A stretch of DNA of 64,000 bases, taken from NCBI GenBank assembly GCA_965249555.1, contig OZ252243.1:1504001-1568000 (forward strand). Direction: 5' to 3'. Both the position numbers and the translations under genes were made by a program. This document shows, in pieces, positions 52,811 through 64,000 of the stretch. Position 1 is the first letter of the stretch; each line of letters opens with the position of its first letter. A model generated the notes under the pieces. It was given only the letters and a program-made list of their open reading frames with translations, did no database searches and had not been told where the DNA came from. This DNA is from Nitrosopumilus sp. (GTDB lineage: Archaea; Thermoproteota; Nitrososphaeria; Nitrososphaerales; Nitrosopumilaceae).

Positions 52811-54214
52811 CTATTTCCAAATTGTAACAATAGTTGATTTTTCCACGTTATTTCCCTTGCTATCAAATCCTTTGGCAGATATTTTGTAAAGACCTTCAGA
52901 GGCGGCATCGCCGTCATTTTTTATTTGATTCCATGAAAATTCTACCTTCTCTCCAGGTTCCAGATGGGACTCTGCCTGCATACTCATAGGCCTATATATG
53001 ACTATTCCAGACAGGTCAGTGATCATAAGACCATGCGATGAACTAGAAAAAGTCAGCAGAGTGGTTCCAGAATTTGCAATTTGAATTTTTATCTTCTCAT
53101 TTTGCTTAAAAACAGATTTTTCAGTAACTATAGAAATTGAAGAGCCCTCGACAAAAATTTGAGCGGGGACATCACCATCACTTGGAATTGACGGGGTGAC
53201 CTTATGATGAGGCATTATATGGGAATTCGCATAATCTACATAAGGGACAAATTGTTCATCTGGTTCCAAATCTTCAAGCTCTCTAGCTTGGGCCCTACTT
53301 GGCTCAAATTCAGACAAAGTAACAATGCCGTCATCAATGGATGTGTATACCCTAGCAGCATTATCAGCGTATGGTTGTAGTGTAGTCGCATGTACTGTAA
53401 AAGATCCAGAATCATATTTGAGATAATCAAGATTTTCTCTATCATGTATATCTGAGGCAAGATATATGACAGGTTCGTTGATAGTCATTTGGAAAGTTGT
53501 TGGGTTGCCATCAAAAGTCAATCCAGTCAAGTTGTGAGAATAGACCTCAAATGGCGGATAATAATGCTCAAGGATTGTCTTTCCATAGTAAGACAGATCA
53601 GTACCAGAAAGATCGTAATTTGCATGAGATTTAATAGAGTATATCTCCCAATCAGCAATATAACAGAATGTATCCCATAATTCTCGGGCATTGTCAAACT
53701 CTGTTCTATATGTTTCATTATAATCATCTAGTTGTTGCTGTGTCAGTTCAAATGAGGATGTTACAGTAACATCAAAAGTCTGACCAATTTGAACCCTGTC
53801 AGGTACCTGTAATGATATGGAACTTGGCAAGACGCATATCGGTATGGGATTTCCAGCGCCATATAGTTCTCCAACACCAGCTGTGGAATTATCAAATGTG
53901 TCTAGTGAGTTTGATTGTATAGTTATTGTTTTAGATTCCATACCATTTGATTTTAAATCAGACGCATTACTGACTGTCTCAACTTTGACAAATCCCATGT
54001 CTGATAATTTTTCAACAGAACCTTCATTTACACAAGCTGGAGTGTTTCGTGGCGATTCCATCAATACTTTATCATCACTGCATTGGATTTCATCTATTGG
54101 TATTCCCGAACTGTATTGTTTGAATGGTGATAAGATTTTTGTCTCTGCAAGTGCAGGCATTATGCCTATTACGACTGTTATGACTAACAGTCCAAGCAGG
54201 GTCATTTTAATCAT
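52811..54214 (-). CDS. Secreted protein: thaumarchaeal SPxKQ/Cys N-terminal module, unknown middle, C-terminal Ig-like (BsuPI-like) domain
   Basis: Signal peptide from ATG 54214; SPFKQYSSGIPIDEIQC...PACV; LEPGEKVEFSWNQ...GLYKI. The ORF-track ATG (54289) lies inside the IS end. Confidence 0.7.
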   Translation of the reverse strand: MIKMTLLGLLVITVVIGIMPALAETKILSPFKQYSSGIPIDEIQCSDDKVLMESPRNTPACVNEGSVEKLSDMGFVKVETVSNASDLKSNGMESKTITIQSNSLDTFDNSTAGVGELYGAGNPIPICVLPSSISLQVPDRVQIGQTFDVTVTSSFELTQQQLDDYNETYRTEFDNARELWDTFCYIADWEIYSIKSHANYDLSGTDLSYYGKTILEHYYPPFEVYSHNLTGLTFDGNPTTFQMTINEPVIYLASDIHDRENLDYLKYDSGSFTVHATTLQPYADNAARVYTSIDDGIVTLSEFEPSRAQARELEDLEPDEQFVPYVDYANSHIMPHHKVTPSIPSDGDVPAQIFVEGSSISIVTEKSVFKQNEKIKIQIANSGTTLLTFSSSSHGLMITDLSGIVIYRPMSMQAESHLEPGEKVEFSWNQIKNDGDAASEGLYKISAKGFDSKGNNVEKSTIVTIWK

Positions 54215-54283
54215 CAATCCGTTTGGCAAATCATTTCTATTAAGTAGTATCCAGCTTGGTTGATGGAAATGTTTCAAAGTTTG

Positions 54284-54905
54284 ATCCATGTGAATTGTTT
54301 TTATACATTTCCTACTTTTTTGCGTCCCGAGGCATAGCCTTCGCTAGGACATATTCGCAGTTATCAACCGAGGCTTGTCCCTCAACATATAAAACGCGAC
54401 TTGCAGTCCTAACTGTAATTCTGTACAAATTCTCTTCTCTCTTTTAGCATCCAGTAAATCACTCGCAGGATATTTGATGATGCAGCAACTATATCTTTTG
54501 ATGAGCCTCTCTTCTTTTTAATGCGATTGTAAAATTTTGTAATGTCACTGTTCTTGGCATGTATTGTATGAGAATGAACGCATTGGATAAGGATCCATCG
54601 TACCGTCATGCTTCCCCTTTTGGTTATACGGTCATGGTGTAACCGTGTCTGCAGAATTTCTAACTGATGGCACGACTCCGACATATGCGCATAACCTGTG
54701 AGAGTCATTGAATCTCCCATACGAAATCGTCTCCAACCCTACTGAGGATACTTACTAGCATGCTTTGCTGAATCAGGACATCTCAGATATGCCTTGCATC
54801 TTATACTTTCGCTGTGTCAGTTCATGATTTTGTGTATAATACACTTTCAGAGTTAGCATGTGCCCGGATTGTTGCAAGCATCCTGTCTTGCAGCTGCCAC
54901 CTTTG
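54284..54905 (-). mobile_element. IS110-family remnant (copy 2): transposase C-terminus plus internally deleted downstream non-coding end
   Basis: CAYVGVVPSVRNSA, RITKRGS..VRWIL, FYNRIKKKRG...ILRVIYWMLK; end sequence shared with copy 3. Confidence 0.85.
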
Positions 54906-54924
54906 TTTTCTCCTCTTTGCAATT

Positions 54925-55238
54925 CTGAAATCTATCTTTTTGAGAATGGAAAGGACGCTGTAAAAGGATGTAAGAAACTATTTTCTAAAAACAAAGAACC
55001 TGTGGTTCTTCTTGATATGGGACTGCCTGATCTTGAAGGTGATGTTGTTGCAACAAAATTACTCGAGGATAAATTGAATTTACAGATTGCAGTTATCACT
55101 GCTGATGAAAAAACAACCACACGTGTTAACAAAACAATCAGTACTGGCGTATCCGCATTTATTCAAAAACCATTTACACTTGATAAAGTCAAAAAAGCAC
55201 TAGATATTGCAGAATCTGAATATTCTTTATTACAATAA
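54925..55238 (+). pseudogene. Response-regulator receiver domain, N-terminally truncated by the IS remnant
   Basis: VVLLDMGLPDLEG, IAVITA, FIQKPF present; first beta-strand/acidic pair replaced by IS-derived sequence. Confidence 0.7.
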
Positions 55239-55728
55239 AAGCAAAGACATGTTTAGTATATTGGCATCTTTGATGTCAATCTCATTGATTCTATAATCAA
55301 TTATCTCTTCTGAAAACTTTTCTACAATTTTCTGTGATGTGTTTGCTTTTTCAGAATCGACTTGAATGATTACTAACATGTTCCATTCTCCTTCCATGTT
55401 TGCTACTAGAAGATAATTATCCAATTTTGTAATGAACTCTCTGATAGAATCTTTTACTGCTTCAAGGGACTGATGGTTTTAGTTTCATCAATATTGCTTG
55501 ATACTTGTTAATTCCAGATACATCTGTCAGAACCGCTTTATACCCTTTAATGATTCCACTTTTCTCAAGTCGTTCCATTCTTCTTCTGATTGTTCTATCT
55601 GAAACATCATGACCTGATTTTGTTAGTTCTGATGCAATTTCTTTTGATGGTGTTCTAGCATTGTTGTTGAGAATCTCAATAATCTTTTGATCAACTTTGT
55701 CTAGATTTGACCATGCATCTTCACTCAT
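55230..55728 (-). pseudogene. Lrp/AsnC regulator split by a frameshift near 55462
   Basis: HTH part LDKVDQKIIEILNNNARTP...IIKGYKA ends KPSVP*; another frame continues LEAVKDSIREFITKLDNYLL...GEWNML. Confidence 0.75.
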
Positions 55729-55797
55729 ACTACACAAAAGTTCTAATGCTTTTTGTATTTTTGGTTGAATTTTGCCCACATACCATTTAGGGTTGGC

Positions 55798-56361
55798 CTA
55801 ATCTTCTAAAATCCAACCTGATTCTAAAATTTGCTGATCTTCTTGTTCTCCCACTCCTGTTGCAAATCTCCAAATAAATGATGCATTCGTATTCATTTTT
55901 TCTTTAATCTTTAGAAGTGACTCTATTTCGGAATTTAGATTTTGATCTGCTGTTCCATGTTCTTTACAAAACTTGCATTTGGTATCTAATGTAATTGGTT
56001 CATTTTCAATTAACGGATAAGTCATACATGCAAGTGGTCTGTCTTTGTAAATTTTGCATGGAAATCCACCATGTGGTGATTTTTTTCCACTATTTGTATC
56101 TAAGAAAGGACATGTGTTTCCATTTTTTTCAATTCCCATCAATTGATATGCCAAAATTTTTGTTGGAGCTGAATTTTTGTCCTCAGAAATCCCAATTCTT
56201 GGAAAAATTTTGATCTCTAATTCATTTAATTTTGCTAATTTTTCTATTCGTTCTTTTTCTTCAGGAAGAATTAGCACTCCTATCTTTCCAAATTTCTTAC
56301 TTGGATAATATTCCCTTTCAATACAACATTGAGAACAATCTTCTATGCACCTAAATTCCAC
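55798..56361 (-). CDS. YkgJ-family (CxxCxxCC) putative Fe-S/Zn protein
   Basis: CIEDCSQCC, CPFL, CKIYKDRPLACMTYP. Confidence 0.85.
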   Translation of the reverse strand: MEFRCIEDCSQCCIEREYYPSKKFGKIGVLILPEEKERIEKLAKLNELEIKIFPRIGISEDKNSAPTKILAYQLMGIEKNGNTCPFLDTNSGKKSPHGGFPCKIYKDRPLACMTYPLIENEPITLDTKCKFCKEHGTADQNLNSEIESLLKIKEKMNTNASFIWRFATGVGEQEDQQILESGWILED

Positions 56362-56470
56362 AGATTAGTTTTCATTGTAATAGATAAAATTCCTTGTGTA
56401 TTGTGATGTACTGGAATTTGACATAATCAAAAACCCTATCAGTTATATGTTTACAATGCCAATTATCCTC

Positions 56471-56782
56471 ATGGGTAAGCGCCAAGTAAAAAATGAAAGT
56501 GCTCTTAAAGAGATCCGTCTCCCTGAAGAAGGCGAACTTTTTGGCAGGGTATTGAAAATGCTTGGAGGTGAAAATGTCATGATAAAATGTGCCGATAATG
56601 TTACCCGACGTGGTAGAATTAGAGGTAAACTAAAGAGAAGAGTTTGGATTAGAGATAATGATATTGTGATTATTGCACCTTGGGATTTTAAAGAAAATGA
56701 ACGTGGTGATATCATTTGGAGATTCACTCTACCTCAAGTGACATGGTTAAAGGAACAAAATCACATTCCTAAAGATTTCTAG
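56471..56782 (+). CDS. eif1a: Translation initiation factor aIF-1A
   Basis: GRVLKMLG...IRGKLKRRVWIR..DIVIIAPWDF. Confidence 0.95.
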   Translation: MGKRQVKNESALKEIRLPEEGELFGRVLKMLGGENVMIKCADNVTRRGRIRGKLKRRVWIRDNDIVIIAPWDFKENERGDIIWRFTLPQVTWLKEQNHIPKDF

Positions 56783-56853
56783 CCTATCTCGTTTTTGACT
56801 TGGTCTGTTTTTAATAACTTACTTAATATAGTGATTAATTATTTGGAAATCAA

Positions 56854-57045
56854 ATGGAACAAGGCACCGTAAAGTGGTTTAACCGTACTAAGGGCTTTGG
56901 TTTTATCGAAAGAGAAGATGGAGACGATCTGTTTGTTCATAAATCAGACGTTGACGGATTCATCAACGAAGGCGATAAAGTCGAGTTTGAAGTAGGCGAA
57001 GGTCAAAAAGGACCTGCAGCACAAAAAGTCAAAAAATCAGAATAG
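56854..57045 (+). CDS. csp: Cold-shock protein
   Basis: GTVKWFN..KGFGFI...LFVHKS...GQKGPAA. Confidence 0.95.
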
Positions 57046-57153
57046 GCATAGAATTTTTTAATTTAAGATTTCTTTTGTTTTCTTAAATCAGTCTATCTTT
57101 TTATTATTTTTCACAACCTTAAATTTACTAGAATACACATTTAATTTCATATT

Positions 57154-57762
57154 ATGACTCAAAGAAAAAATATACCCGAATGGGATTCATTCTATAAAGA
57201 AAATAAAGTAGAAGAAATGCCATGGTATGAAAAGAATCTTGATTCTGATTTAGAATATCAAATAAATTCCATGAATCTCACTAAAGGAAAATTTTTAGAT
57301 CTTGGTACTGGTCCTGGGACTCAGGCAATTCAATTAGCTAAATTAGGTTTTGAATCCACAGGAGCTGACATATCAAAAAATGCAATAGACAAAGCCAAAC
57401 AACTTTCAAGTGATGTAAATTTTGTTGTAGATGATATACTAAACTCTGCATTTCCAGATGATTCATTTGACTATATTTTAGACAGGGGCTGTTTTCATGT
57501 ATTTGACCCAGAATTAAGAGAAAAATATCTAAATCAAATTAAGAGAATCTTGAAAGATAATGGGACATTGTTTCTAAAAGTCATGAGTATTGAAGGGAAA
57601 GGCTTACCTGATGATGAGGGACCGCAGAGATTTTCACAGCAAAAAGTTCTAGATACATTTGAAAAAGATTTTGAAGTAGTAGAAATCAAACCAACTGTAT
57701 ATTATGGAACACTTGACCCATTGCCTAAAGCACTATTTGCAGTCATTAAACAAAAGATCTAA
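57154..57762 (+). CDS. Class I SAM-dependent methyltransferase
   Basis: LDLGTGPG, FDYILDRGCFH. Confidence 0.88.
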   Translation: MTQRKNIPEWDSFYKENKVEEMPWYEKNLDSDLEYQINSMNLTKGKFLDLGTGPGTQAIQLAKLGFESTGADISKNAIDKAKQLSSDVNFVVDDILNSAFPDDSFDYILDRGCFHVFDPELREKYLNQIKRILKDNGTLFLKVMSIEGKGLPDDEGPQRFSQQKVLDTFEKDFEVVEIKPTVYYGTLDPLPKALFAVIKQKI

Positions 57763-57810
57763 TCATAGTAAGATTATTCATTCAAATCTTGGCAATGCAA
57801 ATCCCAATGA

Positions 57811-57957
57811 TTAATCTTCTTCGTCATCTTCAGGTTCCTGCATTCCATCATCTATTACTTTTAATGCAAATGCATCTGGAACAAAATCAAATGATACATC
57901 TGACGTTATTCCAATTGAAAGAACAACAGGAATAATGAAAATATTGTTAAATCCCAT
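57811..57957 (-). CDS. 48-aa ORF (signal-peptide-like start, acidic tail); possible remnant
   Basis: MGFNNIFIIPVVLSIGITSDVSFDFVPDAFALKVIDDGMQEPEDDEED. Confidence 0.4.
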   Translation of the reverse strand: MGFNNIFIIPVVLSIGITSDVSFDFVPDAFALKVIDDGMQEPEDDEED

Positions 57958-58081
57958 GTTGATATGATTTGGTAATTAAATTAGAAGGTTAGATATGTAA
58001 TCTTTTTTTTACGGATTTTTCTAATCTAGATACGCTCATATACAAAATTATGAACTTCAAAAAAGCTATATTGAGGTTGGG

Positions 58082-58186
58082 ATGGTTAAAAGAATTCAAT
58101 GTCCATATTGTGAAAAATATATCGCAGGAGAAGGATTTTTGCAAAGACACATCAAAACTGTCCACAAACTAAAATTAACTACATAG
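58082..58186 (+). CDS. 34-aa C2H2 zinc-finger micro-protein (not in ORF track)
   Basis: MVKRIQCPYCEKYIAGEGFLQRHIKTVHKLKLTT: CxxC-x12-H-x4-H. Confidence 0.65.
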   Translation: MVKRIQCPYCEKYIAGEGFLQRHIKTVHKLKLTT

Positions 58187-58210
58187 TTACAATAAGCGAT
58201 GAATTTTGAA

Positions 58211-58354
58211 TTATTTTATACCTTTACGTATTGCCTGATTTATCACTCTGGAGAAACTTACAGATTTTGGTGAATCCCTTATCTGTCTTGATTGTCTCTC
58301 ACGTAATTTCTTAAAGAGATCATCATCAAGTACTATGGTGATACGTTTCCCCAT
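58211..58354 (-). CDS. 47-aa ribbon-helix-helix (CopG-like) protein (not in ORF track)
   Basis: MGKRITIVLDDDLFKKLRERQ...SVSFSRVINQAIRKGIK. Confidence 0.75.
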   Translation of the reverse strand: MGKRITIVLDDDLFKKLRERQSRQIRDSPKSVSFSRVINQAIRKGIK

Positions 58355-58516
58355 GATGTAATCCATCACTTCATACATTTTAAGTTGTTCGTTTTTTTAT
58401 TGTAACTGATTATCCTTCATAATTATATGTAAAATTATTTTGCGTGATCAATACATAATTTTCTATAATTCAAACTTACAAATTTTAAATCAATATTTAA
58501 TTCCCAGAAAATTTTG

Positions 58517-58643
58517 TGGTCCCGTGGGGCGGAATTGAACCACCGACAACCCGGTTTCTGTATGCCTGATATGCTGCTATTTGGTCAGCCATCTAAAGCC
58601 AACAACTACAGCCGGAAGCTCTACCAGGCTGAGCTACCACGGG
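58517..58643 (-). tRNA. tRNA-Tyr(GTA) with 50-nt intron (58556-58605) and encoded CCA
   Basis: CCCGTGG/CCACGGG acceptor stem (C1-G72, archaeal Tyr); TCCGG-CT-GTA-G[intron]A-CCGGG. Confidence 0.92.
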
Positions 58644-58754
58644 ACAAGGAAAACGAAGATCTATACTATTAAAAAACTATCGTAGGTGGGTTTGTCAATT
58701 TGATCGTTATAACGTACTATACGCATAAATACTCTTGACAGATTTTTAAGCTTA

Positions 58755-59366
58755 ATGTCAAAGCTAACATTATCTTATTCTGGTTATGTTGTTGCTCCCT
58801 ATTTGCATACTCATAGATCTATTGAACTTAAAGAAACTTGGATTAATTCAAAAAATATTGAAAAATTATTTTTTGTTACCGGCACATTTTCTAGTGAAAG
58901 CAAACCATACTTTTCTGATTCTACTAATCATTATCTTCTAGCTAAATTCAAAGATAGTGAACTGACATCACAAGATCTTGCTATGTATAACCAAGAAAAG
59001 ACTTCTTTTGTATTTAATATCAAAGATGATCTCTTCAAAAGAGAAGTTAAAGGCGAAACTAATTTTGTTTCAGTATACTATCTAGAGTATGGAGAAGATA
59101 ATGAAGACCTCCAAGTAATTGCAAACCTCTTGATAAAAAGAGACAAAATTGAGAAAGCTGGACTGGGAAACATGAATACCCGTTGCTTAAATCCTTCAAA
59201 GTTTACATTTCCATACTCTGAAAATATTGTAGTCATTGAAGTTGCAAGTGAAAAGAGTCATCAAAGTCTACAGAAATACTGCGAACAAACACGACGTGAT
59301 GTTAACAGAAAAGGATTAACATTGACTAACTTGATGAGTCTCTCCCTTCTTGATCAACTAAAATAG
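58755..59366 (+). CDS. Conserved hypothetical protein
   Basis: 203-aa ORF, host-like codon usage. Confidence 0.7.
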   Translation: MSKLTLSYSGYVVAPYLHTHRSIELKETWINSKNIEKLFFVTGTFSSESKPYFSDSTNHYLLAKFKDSELTSQDLAMYNQEKTSFVFNIKDDLFKREVKGETNFVSVYYLEYGEDNEDLQVIANLLIKRDKIEKAGLGNMNTRCLNPSKFTFPYSENIVVIEVASEKSHQSLQKYCEQTRRDVNRKGLTLTNLMSLSLLDQLK

Positions 59367-59399
59367 AAAAGTTAAATATTCGAGCAAAAACTGTTTTGC

Positions 59400-59816
59400 A
59401 TGAGCAAGCCATCTGATCTCGGTTCTTTGAAAATAGGTTCTTACATTCTATTACCACATTCTGATCAACCAAGTGGCGAACCATGCAGAATTGTTGAATA
59501 TGATACATCAAAACCAGGAAAACACGGTTCAGCAAAAGCACGAATTGTTGGACAGGGAATTTTTGATGGTCAAAAAAGACCTCATGTAGGACCAGTTAGC
59601 ATGCAAATTCACATCCCGTTAATTAACAAAAAAGTTGGCCAAATCATTTCAATTAATGGTGACGTCATACAAGTAATGGATTCTGAAACATTTGAGACAA
59701 TTGATGTATCTATGATTGACGATGAAGTTAAAGGCAAATTAGAAAATGGGCAAAATGTAGAATATTGGGTTGTAATGGATAAAACTAAAATAATGAGGAT
59801 TAAAAGTATTACTTGA
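59400..59816 (+). CDS. eif5a: Translation factor aIF-5A
   Basis: TSKPGKHGSAK hypusine motif. Confidence 0.96.
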   Translation: MSKPSDLGSLKIGSYILLPHSDQPSGEPCRIVEYDTSKPGKHGSAKARIVGQGIFDGQKRPHVGPVSMQIHIPLINKKVGQIISINGDVIQVMDSETFETIDVSMIDDEVKGKLENGQNVEYWVVMDKTKIMRIKSIT

Positions 59817-60028
59817 TAATAACGCATTTTATCATACAGTCAACTCATCCTAAAACTGATCATTTTGTAAATATTTGATGATAATATGGATCTAACAACA
59901 CAAACATGTCTTCATGATTCATAAAGAAATGTCAGATGCTCAATGATACATATACTAGAACAATTTCAAAGTCAATTCATGGGGTGCAGGGAAATCTGTG
60001 TACAATATAAGGCAAAAAAACCGTATGT

Positions 60029-60395
60029 ATCCATGTGAATTGTTTTTATACATTTCCCACTTTTTTGCATCCCAAGGCATAGCCTTCGCTATGGAATGCT
60101 TTCAAACAAAAGATGACGGACATGTATCCATACGAGGTCTGTTCCTCAATGCTATCTTCATCCCTTTGTCAGGATTATTCGCAGTTATTACCCGAGGCTT
60201 GTCCCTCAACATCTAACACGCGACTTGCAGTCCTAACTGTAATTCTGTACAAATTCTCTCCTCTCTTTTAGCATCCAGTAAATCACTCGCAGGATCTTTG
60301 ATGATGTGGCAACTGCGGCCTTTGATGAACCTCTCTTCTTTTTAATGCGATTGTAAAATTTTGTAATGTCACTGTTCTTGGCATGTATTGTATGA
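60029..60395 (-). mobile_element. IS110-family remnant (copy 3): last ~55 codons of transposase plus full 204-bp downstream non-coding end
   Basis: HTIHAKNSDITKFYNRIKKKRGSSKAAVATSSKILRVIYWMLKERREFVQNYS, nearly identical to copy 2; shared terminus AATTCACATGGAT. Confidence 0.85.
60040..60232 (-). ncRNA. Candidate IS110/IS1111 bridge (seek) RNA
   Basis: Two stem / internal-loop / GAGG..CCTC hairpin modules plus a 3' hairpin, folded by eye downstream of the transposase stop. Confidence 0.5.
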
Positions 60396-60878
60396 TTCCA
60401 TTCAACTGTTGTATGCAATTAAGATATTTTCAGGTTTGTGTTATTAATGATTTTGACATATTATACATATGGAACCACTATCAGTAATCATGAAACAGCG
60501 TGATGATACTTTTTGCTGGAACAATGTTTGCTTTAATTGTTCTACACTGTACATCAGGGAGATGAAGATACAACAGGGATTGTAATTTGTTTGATCTGTT
60601 AAAGTATGTGTTAGGGGCAGAATACCCAATCACCTAATTCAAAATGCCTCAAAGTAAAGATTCTGAACAGACACAAATTGTATAGTTTTGGTGATCTGTA
60701 TGCAGAAAAGTTCATGCATAAAACTCATAGACTCATACCTCCATATCACAATACAATGACTGAACTCTTTTCAAAGCTTTTATAAATTATAAATAATTCT
60801 GTTGCAATATGAACAAAGTATTATTCTCTGCGTTAATGGGTGGAGTGGGCTTGGCCTCATTTGTCATATAACTCACCC

Positions 60879-63800
60879 TTGCAGGCAATTATCAGGTACC
60901 CATTTCTCTGCCTCGTATTTGCGGCACTATTTGCCATATCACTGGTCCTTGGGAGTGCCGAGGCCACCCAAGTCACCATCACACCGCTAACTTATGTAGA
61001 TGGTCAGACGGCAATTGAGCCAGGCTCTTTTAACATTATAGTGGATGACAGCCTTCGTCTAACTACGACCTTTGTTCCGCGGCAAGCCGGTGATTGGAGG
61101 ATTACGTCTGATGGTTTTGATCCTCTTGATGGCAGTGTTACTCAATCTGAGGTAAATAATAATGCACGTTTAGGGGATTTTAACAGACAACTGAGTATTG
61201 GTTTTGAGGACGATATCGTTCTTTTCTTCAAACCCAGTGGGGCTAGTGAATTTGCAAAAGTTGCAAGTGGAAACGTGGGGATTGTTCCTGATCTACCTGT
61301 ACTCAGGGTGGTAGGTGTCACTCCGACGTCTATAACGCTTGAATGGGATGATGTGGATGGTGCCCGTGGATACCATTTATTCATAAATGCAGTCGCACAT
61401 ATTACCACTGATCCATCAATCACTTTTGATGAATTAGATCCTGGAACAGAGTACTCTATTGCTGCCATAACAACAACAATTGGTAGTAACGCTATTAGTG
61501 CCAGATCTGCTCCGTTGGATGTAACCACATTGGCTGTAACTCCCTTGTCTGCAACAATAACTTATGCAGATGACCAGACGGCACTTGCCGAAAACATTTT
61601 TGCCGTTATACTGCCTTCCCCGGGAAATGCGGTAAATGTGTGGATTTCACCGCTAGAGAAGGGCACACTTAGATTTGAATCTAGTAATATTGGGAAGAAT
61701 GTCCCGGTTGCTTCAGGTGTGGATCAGACTGTTGCAAGGCCGCTGCCTCATGGTGATGATAATATTGTCATTTCATCAAGCGGTACAGAAGTTGCAAGGA
61801 TATCTATAACGACTGAGCTGGATCCTGATGAACCAGTTTATGCAGAAGAGCAGACGGCAATCCGGGAAGGCTCTTTACGTTATGAGCCGGTTGTAGATGG
61901 TAGCAGCATAAGTGTGAACTTTGTGCCAACAGACGCCGGCAACTTTGTATTTAGATATGGTGACTCTACTTCCACCTCTATTATTAATAAGTTGGGTGCA
62001 GAAGTAACAGTCGGCCTCCCCGTAGGTCATGATTATGATGATGACGTTATCATTGAATTCGGCGGCGTAGAAGCTGTAAGGATGCATGTAACGACCCCGT
62101 CTGAAGACGGTGTATCAATCCAAGCAGGCTCGTTTGTGGTTGTTGATACGATAAATGCAGACGCATTACGCGTAGAATTTGTACCGTTAAAGGAAGGCAC
62201 ATTTACGGTTACGGCAGGTGATACAAGTGAGACAGTTGACGTCTCAGCTGGGGATGTATCGGAATCAACACCAAAAGGGACTGAAATAACAGTCGGGTAT
62301 GAATTTGATGATAATGTCATCCTTTCATTTGGAGGCAAGGATGCTGCAAGGATACATGTGACGACCGGACCCACACCACTCGTACCTTCAGCGCCATCGC
62401 TTAGAATTACAGGTACCACTCATGACACTGTAACGCTCTCATGGGATGCAGTACATCGTGCCGACACCTACACCCTGACCCGAACCCTTGGAAGCAACCC
62501 TGCTGTAACGGTGCTATCTGGAATCGCTGACCTGACTTTTACTGATAAGAACCTGGCTGCCGAAACCGATTACACGTATTCCCTTACGGCGATAAATTCT
62601 GTCGGGCCAAGCGAACCTTCCGAGGATACTGTAACCACTGATGCTGCCCCAACTCCACCCGATACCCCGACACTTGTAGCGGGAGTAACCACCCATAATA
62701 CCGTCAGCCTCTCATGGGACGAACCGACCGGGGCCGACAGCTACATACTGACCAGGACTGCCGGCACGGTGATAATTGAGATACCGGTAACTGGGGGAAC
62801 GCACACTGACGATGCTTTGAAATCTGGAGTACAATACACCTATTCCATAAGGGCAGTGTCTGCAATTGGAGCCAGTCCAGATTCTAATGATGTCATCGTA
62901 ACCACGATTCCAGTACCCATAACACCTACCACGCCAACTTACACGGACGGCCAGACTGCAATCGATGAATCCTTTGGCATTATCCTGCTTGGCGATGGCA
63001 CGGCAGGGGTATTCTTTGATGCCACCGATGACGGAAAATATCATGTCGGGTGGGGAGCAGAGACTAGTACCCCTATTACTTACGAGGATGGCTACAGTGC
63101 ATATGTCGTGATTCCTATTGGCGACTATGCCGGCGTTGTCATCTTGTTCTTTGACGATAACGAGGTTGCAAGGCAAGTGGTACCTGCCGTGATAAGCCCG
63201 ATCAAAGACGGTACCCTGTCAGTCACTGATGATGCAGACGGGATCATAACCGTATCACTTACGCCGGCATTTGCCGGCACGTTTTCTGTCAGCACCAATT
63301 CCCTAGAGTCTGAAAAAATTCCCGGCGTACCTGATACCCAGATAGATATTACCCTGGATGTCGGACATGGCTTTGCCGAGGATGTCCTTGTCTCATTCAA
63401 TAATATTATAGTTGCAGGGATATTTGTAACGACCGTCCCTGATGCCCCGGCGCTTGTTCTGGGGCCCGTCACCAGCACCAGCATCACCCTCTCATGGAAT
63501 TCGGTGGATAATGCCGATAGATACACCCTGACCAGAACCGCTGATGGCACTGATGTAATAATAGTATCAGGCAACGTATTGACTTTCACTGATGAGGGTC
63601 TTGCTGCCGGAACCAATTACGTGTATGCCATTACGGCGACAACTCCTGAGGGCAGAACAGGCGCTATATCTGCAGAGCTTGCAGTTGATATTGGCTCTGC
63701 TGCAGAATCCTTTGGCGTCATAGTGGACGGTGATGGTGCATCCGTATCCTTTACACCGCTAGTACCTGGCGATTTCACGATTGGATACGGCGATGATTCA

Positions 63801-64000
63801 GCCAATGATGTTACCATCTCTGTCGCGACTGGCAAGTTGTCTGCAAAACTAACCACGATAAAGGTCGGCTATAATTTTAACGGCCCGGTCACCCTCTCCC
63901 TTGATAATGATATTATTGGCAGGATATTGATAGTCACCGAGCCTCCTCCTACCACGCTTGATGCAACGGCAGTCACCGATACGAGCATCACCCTTGCATG
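60879..64000 (+). CDS. Giant secreted fibronectin type III repeat protein with interspersed unrecognised beta-rich repeats; partial, runs off right edge (>1040 aa)
   Basis: TTG start MQAIIRYPFLCLVFAALFAISLVLGSAEA; FN3 motifs (TSITLEWD...LDPGTEY; TVTLSWD...LAAETDYTY; SITLSWN...LAAGTNYVY); frame stays open to 64000; visibly GC-richer than the core. Confidence 0.88.
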   Translation, partial: MQAIIRYPFLCLVFAALFAISLVLGSAEATQVTITPLTYVDGQTAIEPGSFNIIVDDSLRLTTTFVPRQAGDWRITSDGFDPLDGSVTQSEVNNNARLGDFNRQLSIGFEDDIVLFFKPSGASEFAKVASGNVGIVPDLPVLRVVGVTPTSITLEWDDVDGARGYHLFINAVAHITTDPSITFDELDPGTEYSIAAITTTIGSNAISARSAPLDVTTLAVTPLSATITYADDQTALAENIFAVILPSPGNAVNVWISPLEKGTLRFESSNIGKNVPVASGVDQTVARPLPHGDDNIVISSSGTEVARISITTELDPDEPVYAEEQTAIREGSLRYEPVVDGSSISVNFVPTDAGNFVFRYGDSTSTSIINKLGAEVTVGLPVGHDYDDDVIIEFGGVEAVRMHVTTPSEDGVSIQAGSFVVVDTINADALRVEFVPLKEGTFTVTAGDTSETVDVSAGDVSESTPKGTEITVGYEFDDNVILSFGGKDAARIHVTTGPTPLVPSAPSLRITGTTHDTVTLSWDAVHRADTYTLTRTLGSNPAVTVLSGIADLTFTDKNLAAETDYTYSLTAINSVGPSEPSEDTVTTDAAPTPPDTPTLVAGVTTHNTVSLSWDEPTGADSYILTRTAGTVIIEIPVTGGTHTDDALKSGVQYTYSIRAVSAIGASPDSNDVIVTTIPVPITPTTPTYTDGQTAIDESFGIILLGDGTAGVFFDATDDGKYHVGWGAETSTPITYEDGYSAYVVIPIGDYAGVVILFFDDNEVARQVVPAVISPIKDGTLSVTDDADGIITVSLTPAFAGTFSVSTNSLESEKIPGVPDTQIDITLDVGHGFAEDVLVSFNNIIVAGIFVTTVPDAPALVLGPVTSTSITLSWNSVDNADRYTLTRTADGTDVIIVSGNVLTFTDEGLAAGTNYVYAITATTPEGRTGAISAELAVDIGSAAESFGVIVDGDGASVSFTPLVPGDFTIGYGDDSANDVTISVATGKLSAKLTTIKVGYNFNGPVTLSLDNDIIGRILIVTEPPPTTLDATAVTDTSITLA

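What the first reader, a model, noticed from the sequence alone, without database searches (positions are those of the whole stretch)
60025..60232. Candidate archaeal bridge/seek RNA in the IS110 downstream end
Seen: downstream of the transposase stop (minus sense) the 204-nt end folds into two parallel modules. Module 1 is TCGCG[tgttagATg]TTGAGG-gacaag-CCTCGG[gtaATaac]TGCGA. Module 2 is ACAAAGGGATGA[agatagcATt]GAGG-aacaga-CCTC[gtatggATacatgtccg]TCATCTTTTGT. A GCATTCCA...CATAGC-gaag-GCTATG...TGGGATGC stem follows. The 10-mer ATGTATCCAT in loop 2 (60122-60131) recurs exactly across the element end/flank junction (60025-60034), and all four loop strands carry AT, the dinucleotide at which the two IS copies stop matching. 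Established: IS110/IS1111 recombinases use a structured ncRNA with target- and donor-binding internal loops, downstream of the ORF in the IS1111 group. Inference: a thaumarchaeal RNA-guided recombinase guide with an AT core.
Basis: partly seen in the sequence, partly recalled or inferred. Interest (0 to 1): 0.85.

Follow-up and report, generated by a model that had tools for sequence, protein, structure and literature searches.

The report
Archaeal IS1111-type bridge RNA remnant
The flagged stretch is the intact guide-RNA end of a broken jumping gene in an ammonia-oxidising archaeon. Many related copies show that its loops match the DNA next to where each copy sits, as expected for the known RNA-guided IS110/IS1111 recombinases.

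Summary
Window 60028-60239 (minus sense) is the 3' non-coding end of a 5'-truncated IS110-family element of IS1111 type. It encodes a two-loop bridge/seek RNA.

- **Structure:** stems covary across 68 distinct relatives. 20 of 22 pairs show compensatory changes, and 95.6% of cells pair against 85.2% when shuffled.
- **Target loop (module 1):** it is about 6-fold more variable than the rest of the RNA end in this genome. It matches each copy's flanks: right side 7.06/10 against 4.91 permuted, left side 3.82/7 against 1.73, each 0 of 20,000 permutations.
- **Donor loop (module 2):** it is nearly invariant within the genome and tracks changes in the element's right end across lineages.

- The core is TA, not AT.
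- The loop-2 closing helix supported by comparison is GGAUG/UGUCC, not the long stem drawn.
- The window copy has lost all but about 53 codons of its recombinase gene, and its guide does not match its own flank. It is a fossil or, at best, an orphan guide.

The genome holds at least 21 RNA modules but only 3 intact 331-aa recombinase genes. The main guide class targets the terminal inverted repeat of an IS66-family element. No RNA data were available. This is a new member of a known kind.

The parts
60231..60237 (-). P1 5' strand (sense GTTAGGA). It contains the recombinase stop codon TAG at 60233-60235.
   Evidence: RNAalifold helix 1; in A3, 7 of 7 pairs show changes on both sides.
60219..60223 (-). 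P2 5' strand (sense TCGCG), the outer helix of the target-binding loop.
   Evidence: Helix 2: 97.9% of cells paired, 4 of 5 pairs with double changes. The conserved G-U pair fixes the transcribed strand.
60209..60218 (-). Target-binding loop, 5' strand (sense TGTTAGATGT). Its reverse complement should read the second core base plus the right flank (RTG-like).
   Evidence: Hypervariable among 19 copies, pi 0.346 against 0.054 for the rest. Covaries with right flanks. This copy's own flank matches only 4 of 10.
60193..60208 (-). P3 hairpin (TGAGG-gacaag-CCTCG).
   Evidence: Helix 3: 3 of 3 modelled pairs with double changes.
60184..60192 (-). Target-binding loop, 3' strand (sense GGTAA-TA-AC). 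It has the same sense as left flank + core TA + the first 2 nt of the left end (handshake-like).
   Evidence: Left-flank matches 3.82/7 against 1.73 permuted. The last two nt equal the first two nt of the left end in 19 of 22 distinct guides.
60179..60183 (-). P2 3' strand (sense TGCGA).
60168..60174 (-). P1 3' strand (sense TCCTGAC).
60159..60163 (-). P4 5' strand (sense GGATG), the closing helix of the donor-binding loop.
   Evidence: Helix 4: 99.1% of cells paired, 4 of 5 pairs with double changes in A3.
60148..60158 (-). Donor-binding loop, 5' strand (sense AAGATAGCATT). Its reverse complement partly matches the start of the left end. The same 9-mer recurs inside the left end of intact copies.
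   Evidence: Invariant in 19 copies. The left-end-internal copy covaries in 13 lineages, 5 of 20,000 permutations.
60134..60147 (-). P5 hairpin (GAGG-aacaga-CCTC).
   Evidence: Helix 5: 2 of 2 modelled pairs with double changes.
60123..60133 (-). Donor-binding loop, 3' strand (sense GT-ATGGA-TA-CA). This is the last 5 nt of the right end + core + 2 handshake-like nt.
   Evidence: The 7-mer equals the right-end junction in 27 of 39 distinct pairs, with matched variants ATGGATA, ATAGATA and ATGGGTA (sequences).
60118..60122 (-). P4 3' strand (sense TGTCC).
60067..60099 (-). Third hairpin (GCATTCC..CATAGC-gaag-GCTATG..GGGATGC).
   Evidence: Present in the MFE fold. The YAGCG-tetraloop-GCYAT core is visible in relatives. 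It was not modelled in R1.
60043..60050 (-). A/T box (sense TATAAAAA) starting 21 nt before the core. Candidate outward-facing archaeal TATA box.
   Evidence: A TATA-like hexamer starts 19-22 nt before the core in 13 of 17 lineages, some with 53-56% GC. Its function is inferred.
60033..60040 (-). Right subterminal inverted repeat (sense ATTCACAT). Its partner ATGTGAAT lies in the left end of intact copies.
60028..60034 (-). Right-end junction: last 5 nt of the element ATGGA (60030-60034) + core TA (60028-60029). The flank CATACGG... continues from 60027 downwards.
   Evidence: 29 right junctions compared.
60236..60395 (-). Remnant of the recombinase gene (last ~53 codons). Homology to the full element begins at element position 963.
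54284..54935 (-). Second remnant. It holds the 3' part of the same IS from element position 820, with a ~79-nt deletion that removes the donor-binding loop. It is preceded by ~200 nt of the 3' end of another IS110-type element.
   Evidence: The RNA model scores 51.8 bits at 54306-54415.

Best explanation
Window 60028-60239 (minus strand) is the right, non-coding end of a 1333-bp insertion sequence of the IS110 family, IS1111 type. It encodes a bridge/seek RNA that starts at about the recombinase stop codon.

**Architecture of the RNA**
- An outer helix P1 encloses the target-binding internal loop (P2, loop, P3).
- A donor-binding internal loop follows (P4, loop, P5), then a further hairpin.

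**How the loops read DNA**
- In each loop the 3' strand has the same sense as the DNA to the left of the crossover plus the TA core, so it would pair with the bottom strand. It ends in two nucleotides that match the partner expected after strand exchange (handshake-like).
- The 5' strand is complementary to the top strand to the right of the core.
- The target loop therefore specifies left flank-TA-right flank. The donor loop specifies the joined ends ...ATGGA-TA-AC(T/C)AT... of the excised circle.

**How it would work**
- A 331-aa DEDD/serine recombinase, intact in 3 copies elsewhere in the genome, would use the RNA to insert the circle at the matching site.
- The commonest guide in this genome reads GGTTGA-TA-CATAC. 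That sequence is the tip of the terminal inverted repeat of an abundant IS66-family element.

**Shown or inferred**
- Shown: the anatomy, stem covariation, guide-to-flank and guide-to-end covariation, and protein family membership.
- Inferred from the experimentally studied bacterial relatives: that the RNA is made, binds the recombinase and directs recombination.

The window copy lacks the recombinase gene and the left end, so it cannot transpose on its own.
For: **Protein**
- An intact copy has PF01548 (E 2.9e-25) + PF02371 (E 1.6e-21).
- It scores 225.6 bits on NF033542, 'IS110 family RNA-guided transposase', cut-off 140.
- It matches the IS621 recombinase 8wt6 at E 1.5e-13, with the Ser of the SG motif aligned.

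**IS1111-type anatomy**
- 8-bp subterminal inverted repeats.
- 208-nt downstream against 129-nt upstream non-coding region.
- 331-aa protein.

**Structure**
- Unbiased MAFFT + RNAalifold on 13 lineages (41-100% aa identity) gives P1-P5, with 12 of 22 pairs compensatory.
- 95.8% of cells pair, against 87.6 +/- 0.9 shuffled (0/500) and 31-46% when slid.
- On 68 distinct model-aligned sequences, 20 of 22 pairs are compensatory.
- Model R1 hits the window at 60100-60239(-) with 112.6 bits, E 1.9e-24.

**Target loop**
- In this genome, 21 copies carry 10 guide classes. Self match to the right junction is 7.10/10 against 6.22 +/- 0.20 permuted (1 of 100,000). The own class is best or tied in 13 of 21.
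- Across genomes, 31 distinct guides score 7.06/10 against 4.91 +/- 0.20 (0 of 20,000). For 19 of 31, no other flank scores higher.
- On the left side, 22 guides score 3.82/7 against 1.73 +/- 0.25 (0 of 20,000).
- Guide positions are about 6-fold more variable than the rest: pi 0.346 and 0.328 against 0.054.

**Donor loop**
- It is invariant or nearly so within the genome: pi 0.000 for the 5' strand, 0.015 for the segment holding the 3' strand.
- Across lineages it changes together with the right end (ATGGATA, ATAGATA, ATGGGTA).

**Fit to published work**
- The order of strands (top-strand match 5' of bottom-strand match) is the order reported for IS1111 seekRNAs (PMC11187229, sections read).
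- Handshake dinucleotides are described for IS621 (PMC13626964, passages read).

**Host:** an archaeal amoA is present at E 1.5e-117.
Against: - No transcript evidence could be obtained, so expression, RNA ends and processing are unknown.
- The window copy's own guide does not match its right flank: 4 of 10, with other classes reaching 6. Its left junction is lost.
- In this genome 8 of 21 copies match another guide class better than their own.
- Left-flank matches are strong in only about 2 of 8 full copies read by eye.
- The donor-loop 5' strand matches the start of the left end only weakly and discontiguously. The longest match is 4-6 nt in most lineages: 4.62 against 4.02 permuted, 95 of 20,000 permutations as high.
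- The serine motif reads SA rather than the SG/TG described for the family.
- Rfam 15 has no match here at E <= 1.
- R1 does not recognise the closest haloarchaeal or bacterial homologues tested, 0 of 3 loci at E < 2.9. Homology of the RNA to the characterised bacterial seekRNAs therefore rests on architecture, not on sequence.
Confidence: 0.9

Rival explanations
1. The window copy is not just a fossil. Recombinase-less RNA modules like this one are kept and used in trans by the few intact recombinases, as a dispersed set of alternative guides.
For: - At least 21 RNA modules but 3 intact recombinase genes in the genome.
- The window module still scores 112.6 bits, against 108-123 for the others.
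- 8 of 21 copies sit at sites that fit another copy's guide class better than their own.
- The flank of copy 1839383 fits a guide seen in another genome of the genus, L051.
- seekRNA and bridge RNA work in trans in bacteria (PMC11187229, section 12 read).
Against: - Decay of the recombinase gene with a still-recognisable short RNA is also what recent neutral decay gives.
- Overall divergence of the RNA end outside the guides (pi 0.054) is not clearly lower than that of the whole element, which is 90-97% identical in full-length alignments.
- Guide/flank mismatches can equally be mutations after insertion.
- No expression data.
Confidence: 0.25
2. The region acts only as DNA or as an ordinary structured 3' UTR. 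The internal repeats of the end sequence are extra protein-binding sites for the transposase, and no guide RNA is involved.
For: - The donor-loop 3' strand is simply a same-sense copy of the right end, and the 5' strand is a same-sense copy of a segment inside the left end. Repeated protein-binding sites would look like this too.
- No transcript has been shown.
Against: - Repeated binding sites do not explain module 1. Its loop strands vary between copies and follow sequence outside the element on both sides.
- They do not explain 20 of 22 compensatory base pairs.
- Conserved G-U pairs are meaningful on one strand only.
- The protein family is experimentally RNA-guided (PMC11208160 and PMC11187229, passages and sections read).
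Confidence: 0.04
3. The fold and the repeated 10-mer are chance features of an AT-rich IS end.
For: The single-sequence fold is only moderately better than shuffles: z -2.65, 2 of 200 shuffles as good.
Against: - The 10-mer is expected 0.25 times per window.
- The architecture recurs in 26 of 151 genomes of the class, in 5 of 12 families, with covariation.
Confidence: 0.01

Closest known systems
IS1111-group seekRNA / bridge RNA (ISEc11, ISPa11, ISKpn4; Siddiquee et al. 2024, PMC11187229; predicted for 93.0% of ISfinder IS1111 elements by Durrant et al. 2024, PMC11208160)
   Same: - The guide RNA is encoded downstream of the recombinase gene.
- Subterminal inverted repeats are present.
- The protein has about 330-350 aa.
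- The segment complementary to the top strand lies 5' of the one complementary to the bottom strand.
- The two matches overlap at the insertion point.
- The preferred target is the end of another mobile element. The comparison with IS4321/IS5075, which target Tn21-family inverted repeats, rests on a title seen in a reference list.
   Different: - The host is an ammonia-oxidising archaeon.
- There is no detectable RNA sequence similarity: Rfam gave no hit, and R1 does not hit the haloarchaeal or Sphingobium homologues tested.
- The donor-binding nucleotides lie in a simple internal loop. Durrant et al. report a multi-loop for many IS1111 members.
- The core is TA.
- The serine motif is SA.
- An A/T box suited to an archaeal promoter sits 19-22 nt before the core. 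In bacteria a -35/-10 promoter is assembled at the circle junction.
IS621 bridge RNA (IS110 group; Durrant et al. 2024; Hiraizumi et al. 2026, PMC13626964)
   Same: - Two internal loops, one for the target and one for the donor.
- Each loop reads both DNA strands around a shared core dinucleotide.
- Two handshake nucleotides pair only after exchange.
- Pairing of the right-donor guide is discontiguous.
- The recombinase aligns to 8wt6 (E 1.5e-13).
   Different: - In IS621 the RNA lies upstream in the left end, and the 5' loop strand pairs with the bottom strand.
- Here the RNA lies downstream and the strand order is reversed. This equals the IS621 geometry viewed with the DNA rotated by 180 degrees (my inference).
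- The core is CT in IS621 and TA here.
Haloarchaeal IS110-family elements (e.g. ISHvo9 of Haloferax volcanii pHV4)
   Same: These are the closest proteins in the plasmid collection, at 32-37% identity over 97-100% of the length. They are archaeal hosts.
   Different: The RNA model built here finds nothing significant in the two haloarchaeal loci tested; the best E is 2.9. Their RNAs, if any, were not examined further.

Membership tests
IS110 family (DEDD + Ser recombinase) | N-terminal DEDD RuvC-like domain (PF01548) and C-terminal PF02371 domain | tested here: met
   The intact genomic copy has PF01548 at E 2.9e-25 and PF02371 at E 1.6e-21, and NF033542 at 225.6 bits against a cut-off of 140. 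The window copy keeps only the last ~53 codons, 22.7 bits, below the cut-off.
IS110 family (DEDD + Ser recombinase) | Conserved serine in the G--P----S(G) motif | tested here: inconclusive
   The sequence reads GVVPSVRNSA. The Ser aligns with the SG serine of IS621, but the next residue is A, not G. The motif description comes from PMC11187229, section 6.
IS1111 group | Subterminal inverted repeats of 7-17 bp | tested here: met
   ATGTGAAT lies 5 nt inside the left core and ATTCACAT lies 3 nt inside the right core. Equivalent repeats were found at a 6-7-nt match in 11 of 17 relatives.
IS1111 group | The longer non-coding region lies downstream of the recombinase gene | tested here: met
   208 nt downstream against 129 nt upstream in the 1333-bp element.
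IS1111 group | The recombinase groups phylogenetically with IS1111 members | not tested
   No tree with ISfinder reference proteins was built, and reference sequences were not at hand.
Bridge RNA / seekRNA | Conserved secondary structure with two internal loops | tested here: met
Bridge RNA / seekRNA | Target-loop strands are complementary to both strands of the insertion site and covary with it | tested here: met
   with 0 of 20,000 permutations for each side. This is not met by the window copy's own right flank, 4 of 10.
Bridge RNA / seekRNA | Donor-loop strands match the element's two ends around the same core | tested here: met
   Right end: the 7-mer is identical in 27 of 39 distinct pairs and the variants covary. 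Left end: only weak and discontiguous, 95 of 20,000 permutations as high.
Bridge RNA / seekRNA | The RNA is transcribed and binds the recombinase | not testable with these tools
   No RNA run was listed for this sequence.
Bridge RNA / seekRNA | The RNA is required for, and programs, recombination | not testable with these tools
   This needs an experiment.
Any Rfam family | Match to a curated covariance model | tested here: not met
   No Rfam 15 hit at E <= 1 in 53500-61500 apart from a tRNA.

The most novel reading that the evidence does not exclude
In these archaea the guide has become partly uncoupled from the recombinase. A genome keeps many recombinase-less RNA modules with diversified target loops: at least 21 modules, 10 right-guide classes and 3 intact enzymes here. 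The few intact enzymes use these modules in trans, so the IS family behaves as a multi-guide system that retargets rapidly. Its targets include the ends of competing elements, namely the IS66-type inverted repeat here and the left end of a sister IS in genome G177. The conserved copy of the donor-loop 5' strand inside the left end would then act as a decoy or switch that controls donor recognition or recombinase mRNA translation.
Probability: 0.2. Interest if true: 0.7.

Novelty: new member of a known kind. Interest (0 to 1): 0.45.

Why it matters
Bridge/seek RNAs have been studied experimentally only in bacterial elements. This family is compact: a 331-aa protein and an RNA core of about 140 nt. 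It is widespread in ammonia-oxidising archaea, in 26 of 151 genomes of the class sampled, a group that to my knowledge (recalled) still lacks genetic tools.

One genome provides a natural series of retargeted guides with their insertion sites. That series is a ready-made specificity data set, and a starting point for a programmable recombinase native to archaeal transcription and an AT-rich TA core.

It also adds well-defined archaeal IS110 recombinase-RNA pairs to the discussion of a link between IS110 recombinases and archaeal Nop5/C-D box RNPs (bioRxiv 10.1101/2024.06.21.599552, passages read).

For annotation, the locus itself is an ordinary IS remnant.

Tried and rejected
**Searches and tests that gave nothing usable**
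- Similarity of window 59950-60700 to phage records: no match.
- Rfam at E <= 1: only a tRNA.
- Expression: the look-up of sequencing runs listed no RNA holder. The 4 rows are of unknown kind and kept as contigs. Nothing can be said on expression, and read laying was not used because contigs cannot show RNA ends or rare circle junctions.

**Readings I dropped**
- My first model of the right end was ...GGATACA + core TA. It needs a 2-nt deletion or a wrong core in 6 of the 29 right junctions. The end ...ATGGA + TA fits 27 of 29.
- I first took repeat 'X' for a MITE. It is the right end of a 1.41-kb IS66-family element.
- I tested whether the seven copies carrying 29 nt of that element's inverted repeat on their left are moved by the IS66-type transposase. 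The one full copy checked has no 8-bp target duplication (by eye). This is unresolved.
A 3' partner for GGATGAAG exists in several relatives (by eye), but it is not the consensus helix.

**Literature**
- 'bridge RNA' + 'nitroso*' gave 2 papers, both irrelevant by title.
- IS110 + nitroso* + archaea gave 10 papers, none on guide RNAs by title or abstract.
- None of the 15 listed combines bridge or seek terms with thaumarchaeal terms.
- Supplements of the bridge RNA and seekRNA papers, which list predicted RNAs per ISfinder element, were not seen. They may already include archaeal members.

**Rows dropped before counts**
- started from 88 model hits. 68 had a parsed right junction, 53 were distinct, and 31 were distinct guides. 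Some regex misparses (e.g. L086, L089) stayed in and lower the observed score.
- On the left side, 41 rows had a recognised left end, 36 were distinct, and 22 were distinct guides.
Full report
**What is at the locus**

- The only coding remnant upstream is a 61-codon ORF (60233-60418, minus). Its last ~53 codons match the C-terminus of an IS110-family recombinase.
- A second, more damaged copy lies at 54284-54571 and lacks ~79 nt, including module 2.
- The 10-mer ATGTATCCAT occurs only at 60025-60034 and 60122-60131 in the window. It is expected 0.25 times.
- The RNA-sense strand folds into the drawn modules: -59.5 kcal/mol, z -2.65.

**The element in its genome**

The window belongs to a 2.23-Mb single-contig genome that encodes archaeal AmoA (E 1.5e-117).
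- BLAST with the 401-nt end finds 19 near-full 3' ends plus 16 fragments.
- Three copies carry an intact 331-aa ORF.
- Aligning them defines a 1333-bp element, counting a TA at each side.
- The left end reads TA-ACTAT-ATGTGAAT... and the right end reads ...ATTCACAT-GGA-TA. This gives 8-bp subterminal inverted repeats, 129 nt of upstream non-coding sequence and 208 nt downstream.
- TA is present at 21 of 21 left and 27 of 29 right junctions. Two right junctions have TC.
- The protein has PF01548 + PF02371, passes NF033542 'IS110 family RNA-guided transposase' (225.6 bits), and aligns to the IS621 recombinase (8wt6, E 1.5e-13), including the serine.
- The window copy starts at element position 963. 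Copy A starts at position 820.

**Structure across relatives**

A protein search of 201 genomes of the family found relatives in 33 genomes and 10 of 27 genera.
- In 17 lineages with 41-100% protein identity, the sequence downstream of the stop codon shows the same layout.
- MAFFT plus RNAalifold on 13 of these 17 predicts five helices, and 12 of 22 pairs are compensatory. The four with large insertions were left out.
- The helices are P1 (which starts in the stop codon), P2, P3, P4 (GGAUG/UGUCC) and P5.
- Pairing is 95.8% against 87.6 +/- 0.9 in shuffles (0 of 500) and 31-46% when partners are slid.
- A covariance model built from this alignment (R1) finds the window copy at 112.6 bits and the deleted copy at 51.8 bits. 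It also finds four lineages not used to build it.
- R1 finds matches in 26 of 151 genomes of the class, in 5 of 12 families.
- On 88 hits (68 distinct), 20 of 22 pairs show changes on both sides, and 95.6% of cells pair against 85.2 +/- 0.4. That alignment is fitted to the model, so it leans towards the structure.
- Conserved G-U pairs place the RNA on the recombinase strand.

**Module 1 is a target-binding loop**

Among 19 copies in this genome the two loop strands are far more variable than the remaining 197 columns: pi 0.346 and 0.328 against 0.054. The donor loop is invariant or nearly so, at 0.000-0.015.
- The reverse complement of the 5' strand reads the right junction. Examples are copy 282100 (10 of 10), copy 533292 (10 of 10) and copy 710309 (9 of 10).
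- Over 21 copies in 10 guide classes, the mean self match is 7.10 against 6.22 +/- 0.20 when flanks are permuted (1 of 100,000). The own class is best or tied in 13 of 21.
- The 3' strand has the same sense as left flank + TA + AC. An example is GGTTGATAAC in copy 709347.

The pattern repeats in two other genomes.
- In G177, eleven copies of one lineage carry the guide ATAATTACAA and sit at TA-ATTA(C/T)A. A variant guide with one changed base sits at TA-ATTTCA.
- In G019, the guides ...GAC... and ...GAG... go mostly with GTC and CTC flanks.

Over all lineages:
- 31 distinct right guides score 7.06/10 against 4.91 +/- 0.20 (0 of 20,000). For 19 of 31, no other flank scores higher.
- 22 distinct left guides score 3.82/7 against 1.73 +/- 0.25 (0 of 20,000).
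- The last two nucleotides of the 3' strand equal the first two of the left end in 19 of 22, including AC-to-AT changes.

**Module 2 is a donor-binding loop**

- Its 3' strand, GT-ATGGA-TA-CA, is the last five nucleotides of the element, the core, and two nucleotides that equal the start of the commonest right flank (CATAC).
- Across lineages the 7-mer changes together with the right end (ATGGATA, ATAGATA, ATGGGTA). It is identical in 27 of 39 distinct pairs, and some of the misses are parsing errors.
- The 5' strand is complementary to the start of the left end only discontiguously (GCTATCT against (A/G)CTATAT). This resembles the discontiguous RDG-RD pairing reported for IS621 (PMC11208160, passage read). 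The signal is weak, with 95 of 20,000 permutations as high.
- Unexpectedly, the same strand recurs in the same sense inside the left end, 31-43 nt from its start, and covaries there in 13 lineages (7.0 against 5.63 +/- 0.32; 5 of 20,000). I have no tested explanation for this.

**Comparison with the literature**

- Here the order is reversed. That is what Siddiquee et al. report for IS1111-type seekRNAs, whose RNA also lies downstream of the gene (PMC11187229, abstract and sections 6, 9 and 12).
- Handshake dinucleotides that pair only after strand exchange are described for IS621 (PMC13626964, abstract and passages).
- Here the corresponding bases match the post-exchange partner and not the pre-exchange one, which would favour insertion (inference).
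- Durrant et al. predicted bridge RNAs in 93.0% of ISfinder IS1111 elements, and 662 archaeal IS110 recombinases were catalogued in a 2024 preprint. The kind is therefore known.
- I found no paper that links bridge or seek RNAs with ammonia-oxidising archaea. I could not see supplementary tables.

**Targets and context**

- The commonest guide reads GGTTGA-TA-CATAC. This is the tip of the terminal inverted repeat of a 1.41-kb IS66-family element (PF03050, E 4e-41; 8-bp target duplications). All 31 right ends listed for that element read GGTTGA|TACATAC.
- Copy 709347 is a clean insertion there, and 11 of 21 left junctions lie in that element.
- In G177, a sister lineage is inserted in the subterminal repeat of another lineage's left end in 4 fully fetched loci, and in 5 more seen at locus edges.
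- An A/T box starts 19-22 nt before the core in 13 of 17 lineages, some with 53-56% GC. This fits an outward archaeal TATA box that would read across the circle junction into the left end and the recombinase gene (inference).

**Verdict**

The finding is real and correctly interpreted as an IS1111-type bridge/seek RNA, with three corrections: the core is TA, the donor loop closes with a different helix, and the locus is a remnant. It is a new archaeal member of a known kind. The natural guide diversity in one genome, and the unexplained left-end copy of the donor guide, are the parts worth following.

Noticed in passing
G000 contig C1, e.g. 80050-81490; not in the window: A 1.41-kb IS66-family element (442-aa transposase, PF03050 E 4e-41). 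Its terminal inverted repeats read GTATGTATCAA, it makes 8-bp target duplications, and at least 31 copies were found; the 10 aligned are ~98-99% identical. The tip of its inverted repeat, GGTTGA-TA-CATAC, is the site read by the commonest guide of the IS studied here.
   Followed up: partly
window 54572-54935 (minus sense), plus five other places in the genome: In 6 of 7 copies that begin at element position 820, the 3' 514 nt of the IS is preceded by the same sequence, which is the 3' end of another IS110-type element ending ...TTTCGTATGGG. Either that element targets this site in the recombinase gene, or one chimera has spread. Two copies share the same left truncation point.
   Followed up: partly
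left end of intact copies, e.g. L004:570-579 (element positions 33-41); absent from the window copy: The 5' strand of the donor-binding loop (AGATAGCAT) recurs in the same sense inside the left end. It covaries with the loop in 13 lineages and forms an imperfect inverted repeat with the first nucleotides of the left end.
   Followed up: partly
window 60043-60050 (minus sense): A conserved A/T box with a purine-rich stretch just upstream lies at a fixed distance from the right end in 13 of 17 lineages. It may be an outward archaeal promoter that fires across the circle junction, or into the flank when the element is integrated.
   Followed up: partly
G000 C1 left junctions at 94802, 1239983, 1247675, 1854326, 2071120, 2194382, 2210592: Seven copies carry 29 nt of the IS66-type inverted repeat directly left of a variant left end (TAGC instead of TAAC). 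At least the two full-length ones end in TACATAC on the right, so the unit has 9-bp inverted termini and unique flanks. No 8-bp duplication was seen in the one full copy checked.
   Followed up: partly
G177 loci L082-L085 and the edges of L071, L073, L074, L076, L077: One IS lineage is inserted in the subterminal inverted repeat of the left end of a sister lineage. Both of its loop strands match that site (AACTA-TA-TGTGAA).
   Followed up: partly
window 58520-58643 (minus): A tRNA match (46.2 bits) spans 124 nt against a 71-position model, so it probably contains an intron.
   Followed up: no
window 60840-63998 (plus): An open-ended ORF of more than 1053 aa with internal ~90-aa repeats starts ~800 nt from the IS remnant. 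It looks like a large repetitive surface protein.
   Followed up: no
window 54858-55238 (plus): A receiver-domain-like ORF abuts the second IS remnant and appears truncated at its N-terminus by it (read by eye only).
   Followed up: no
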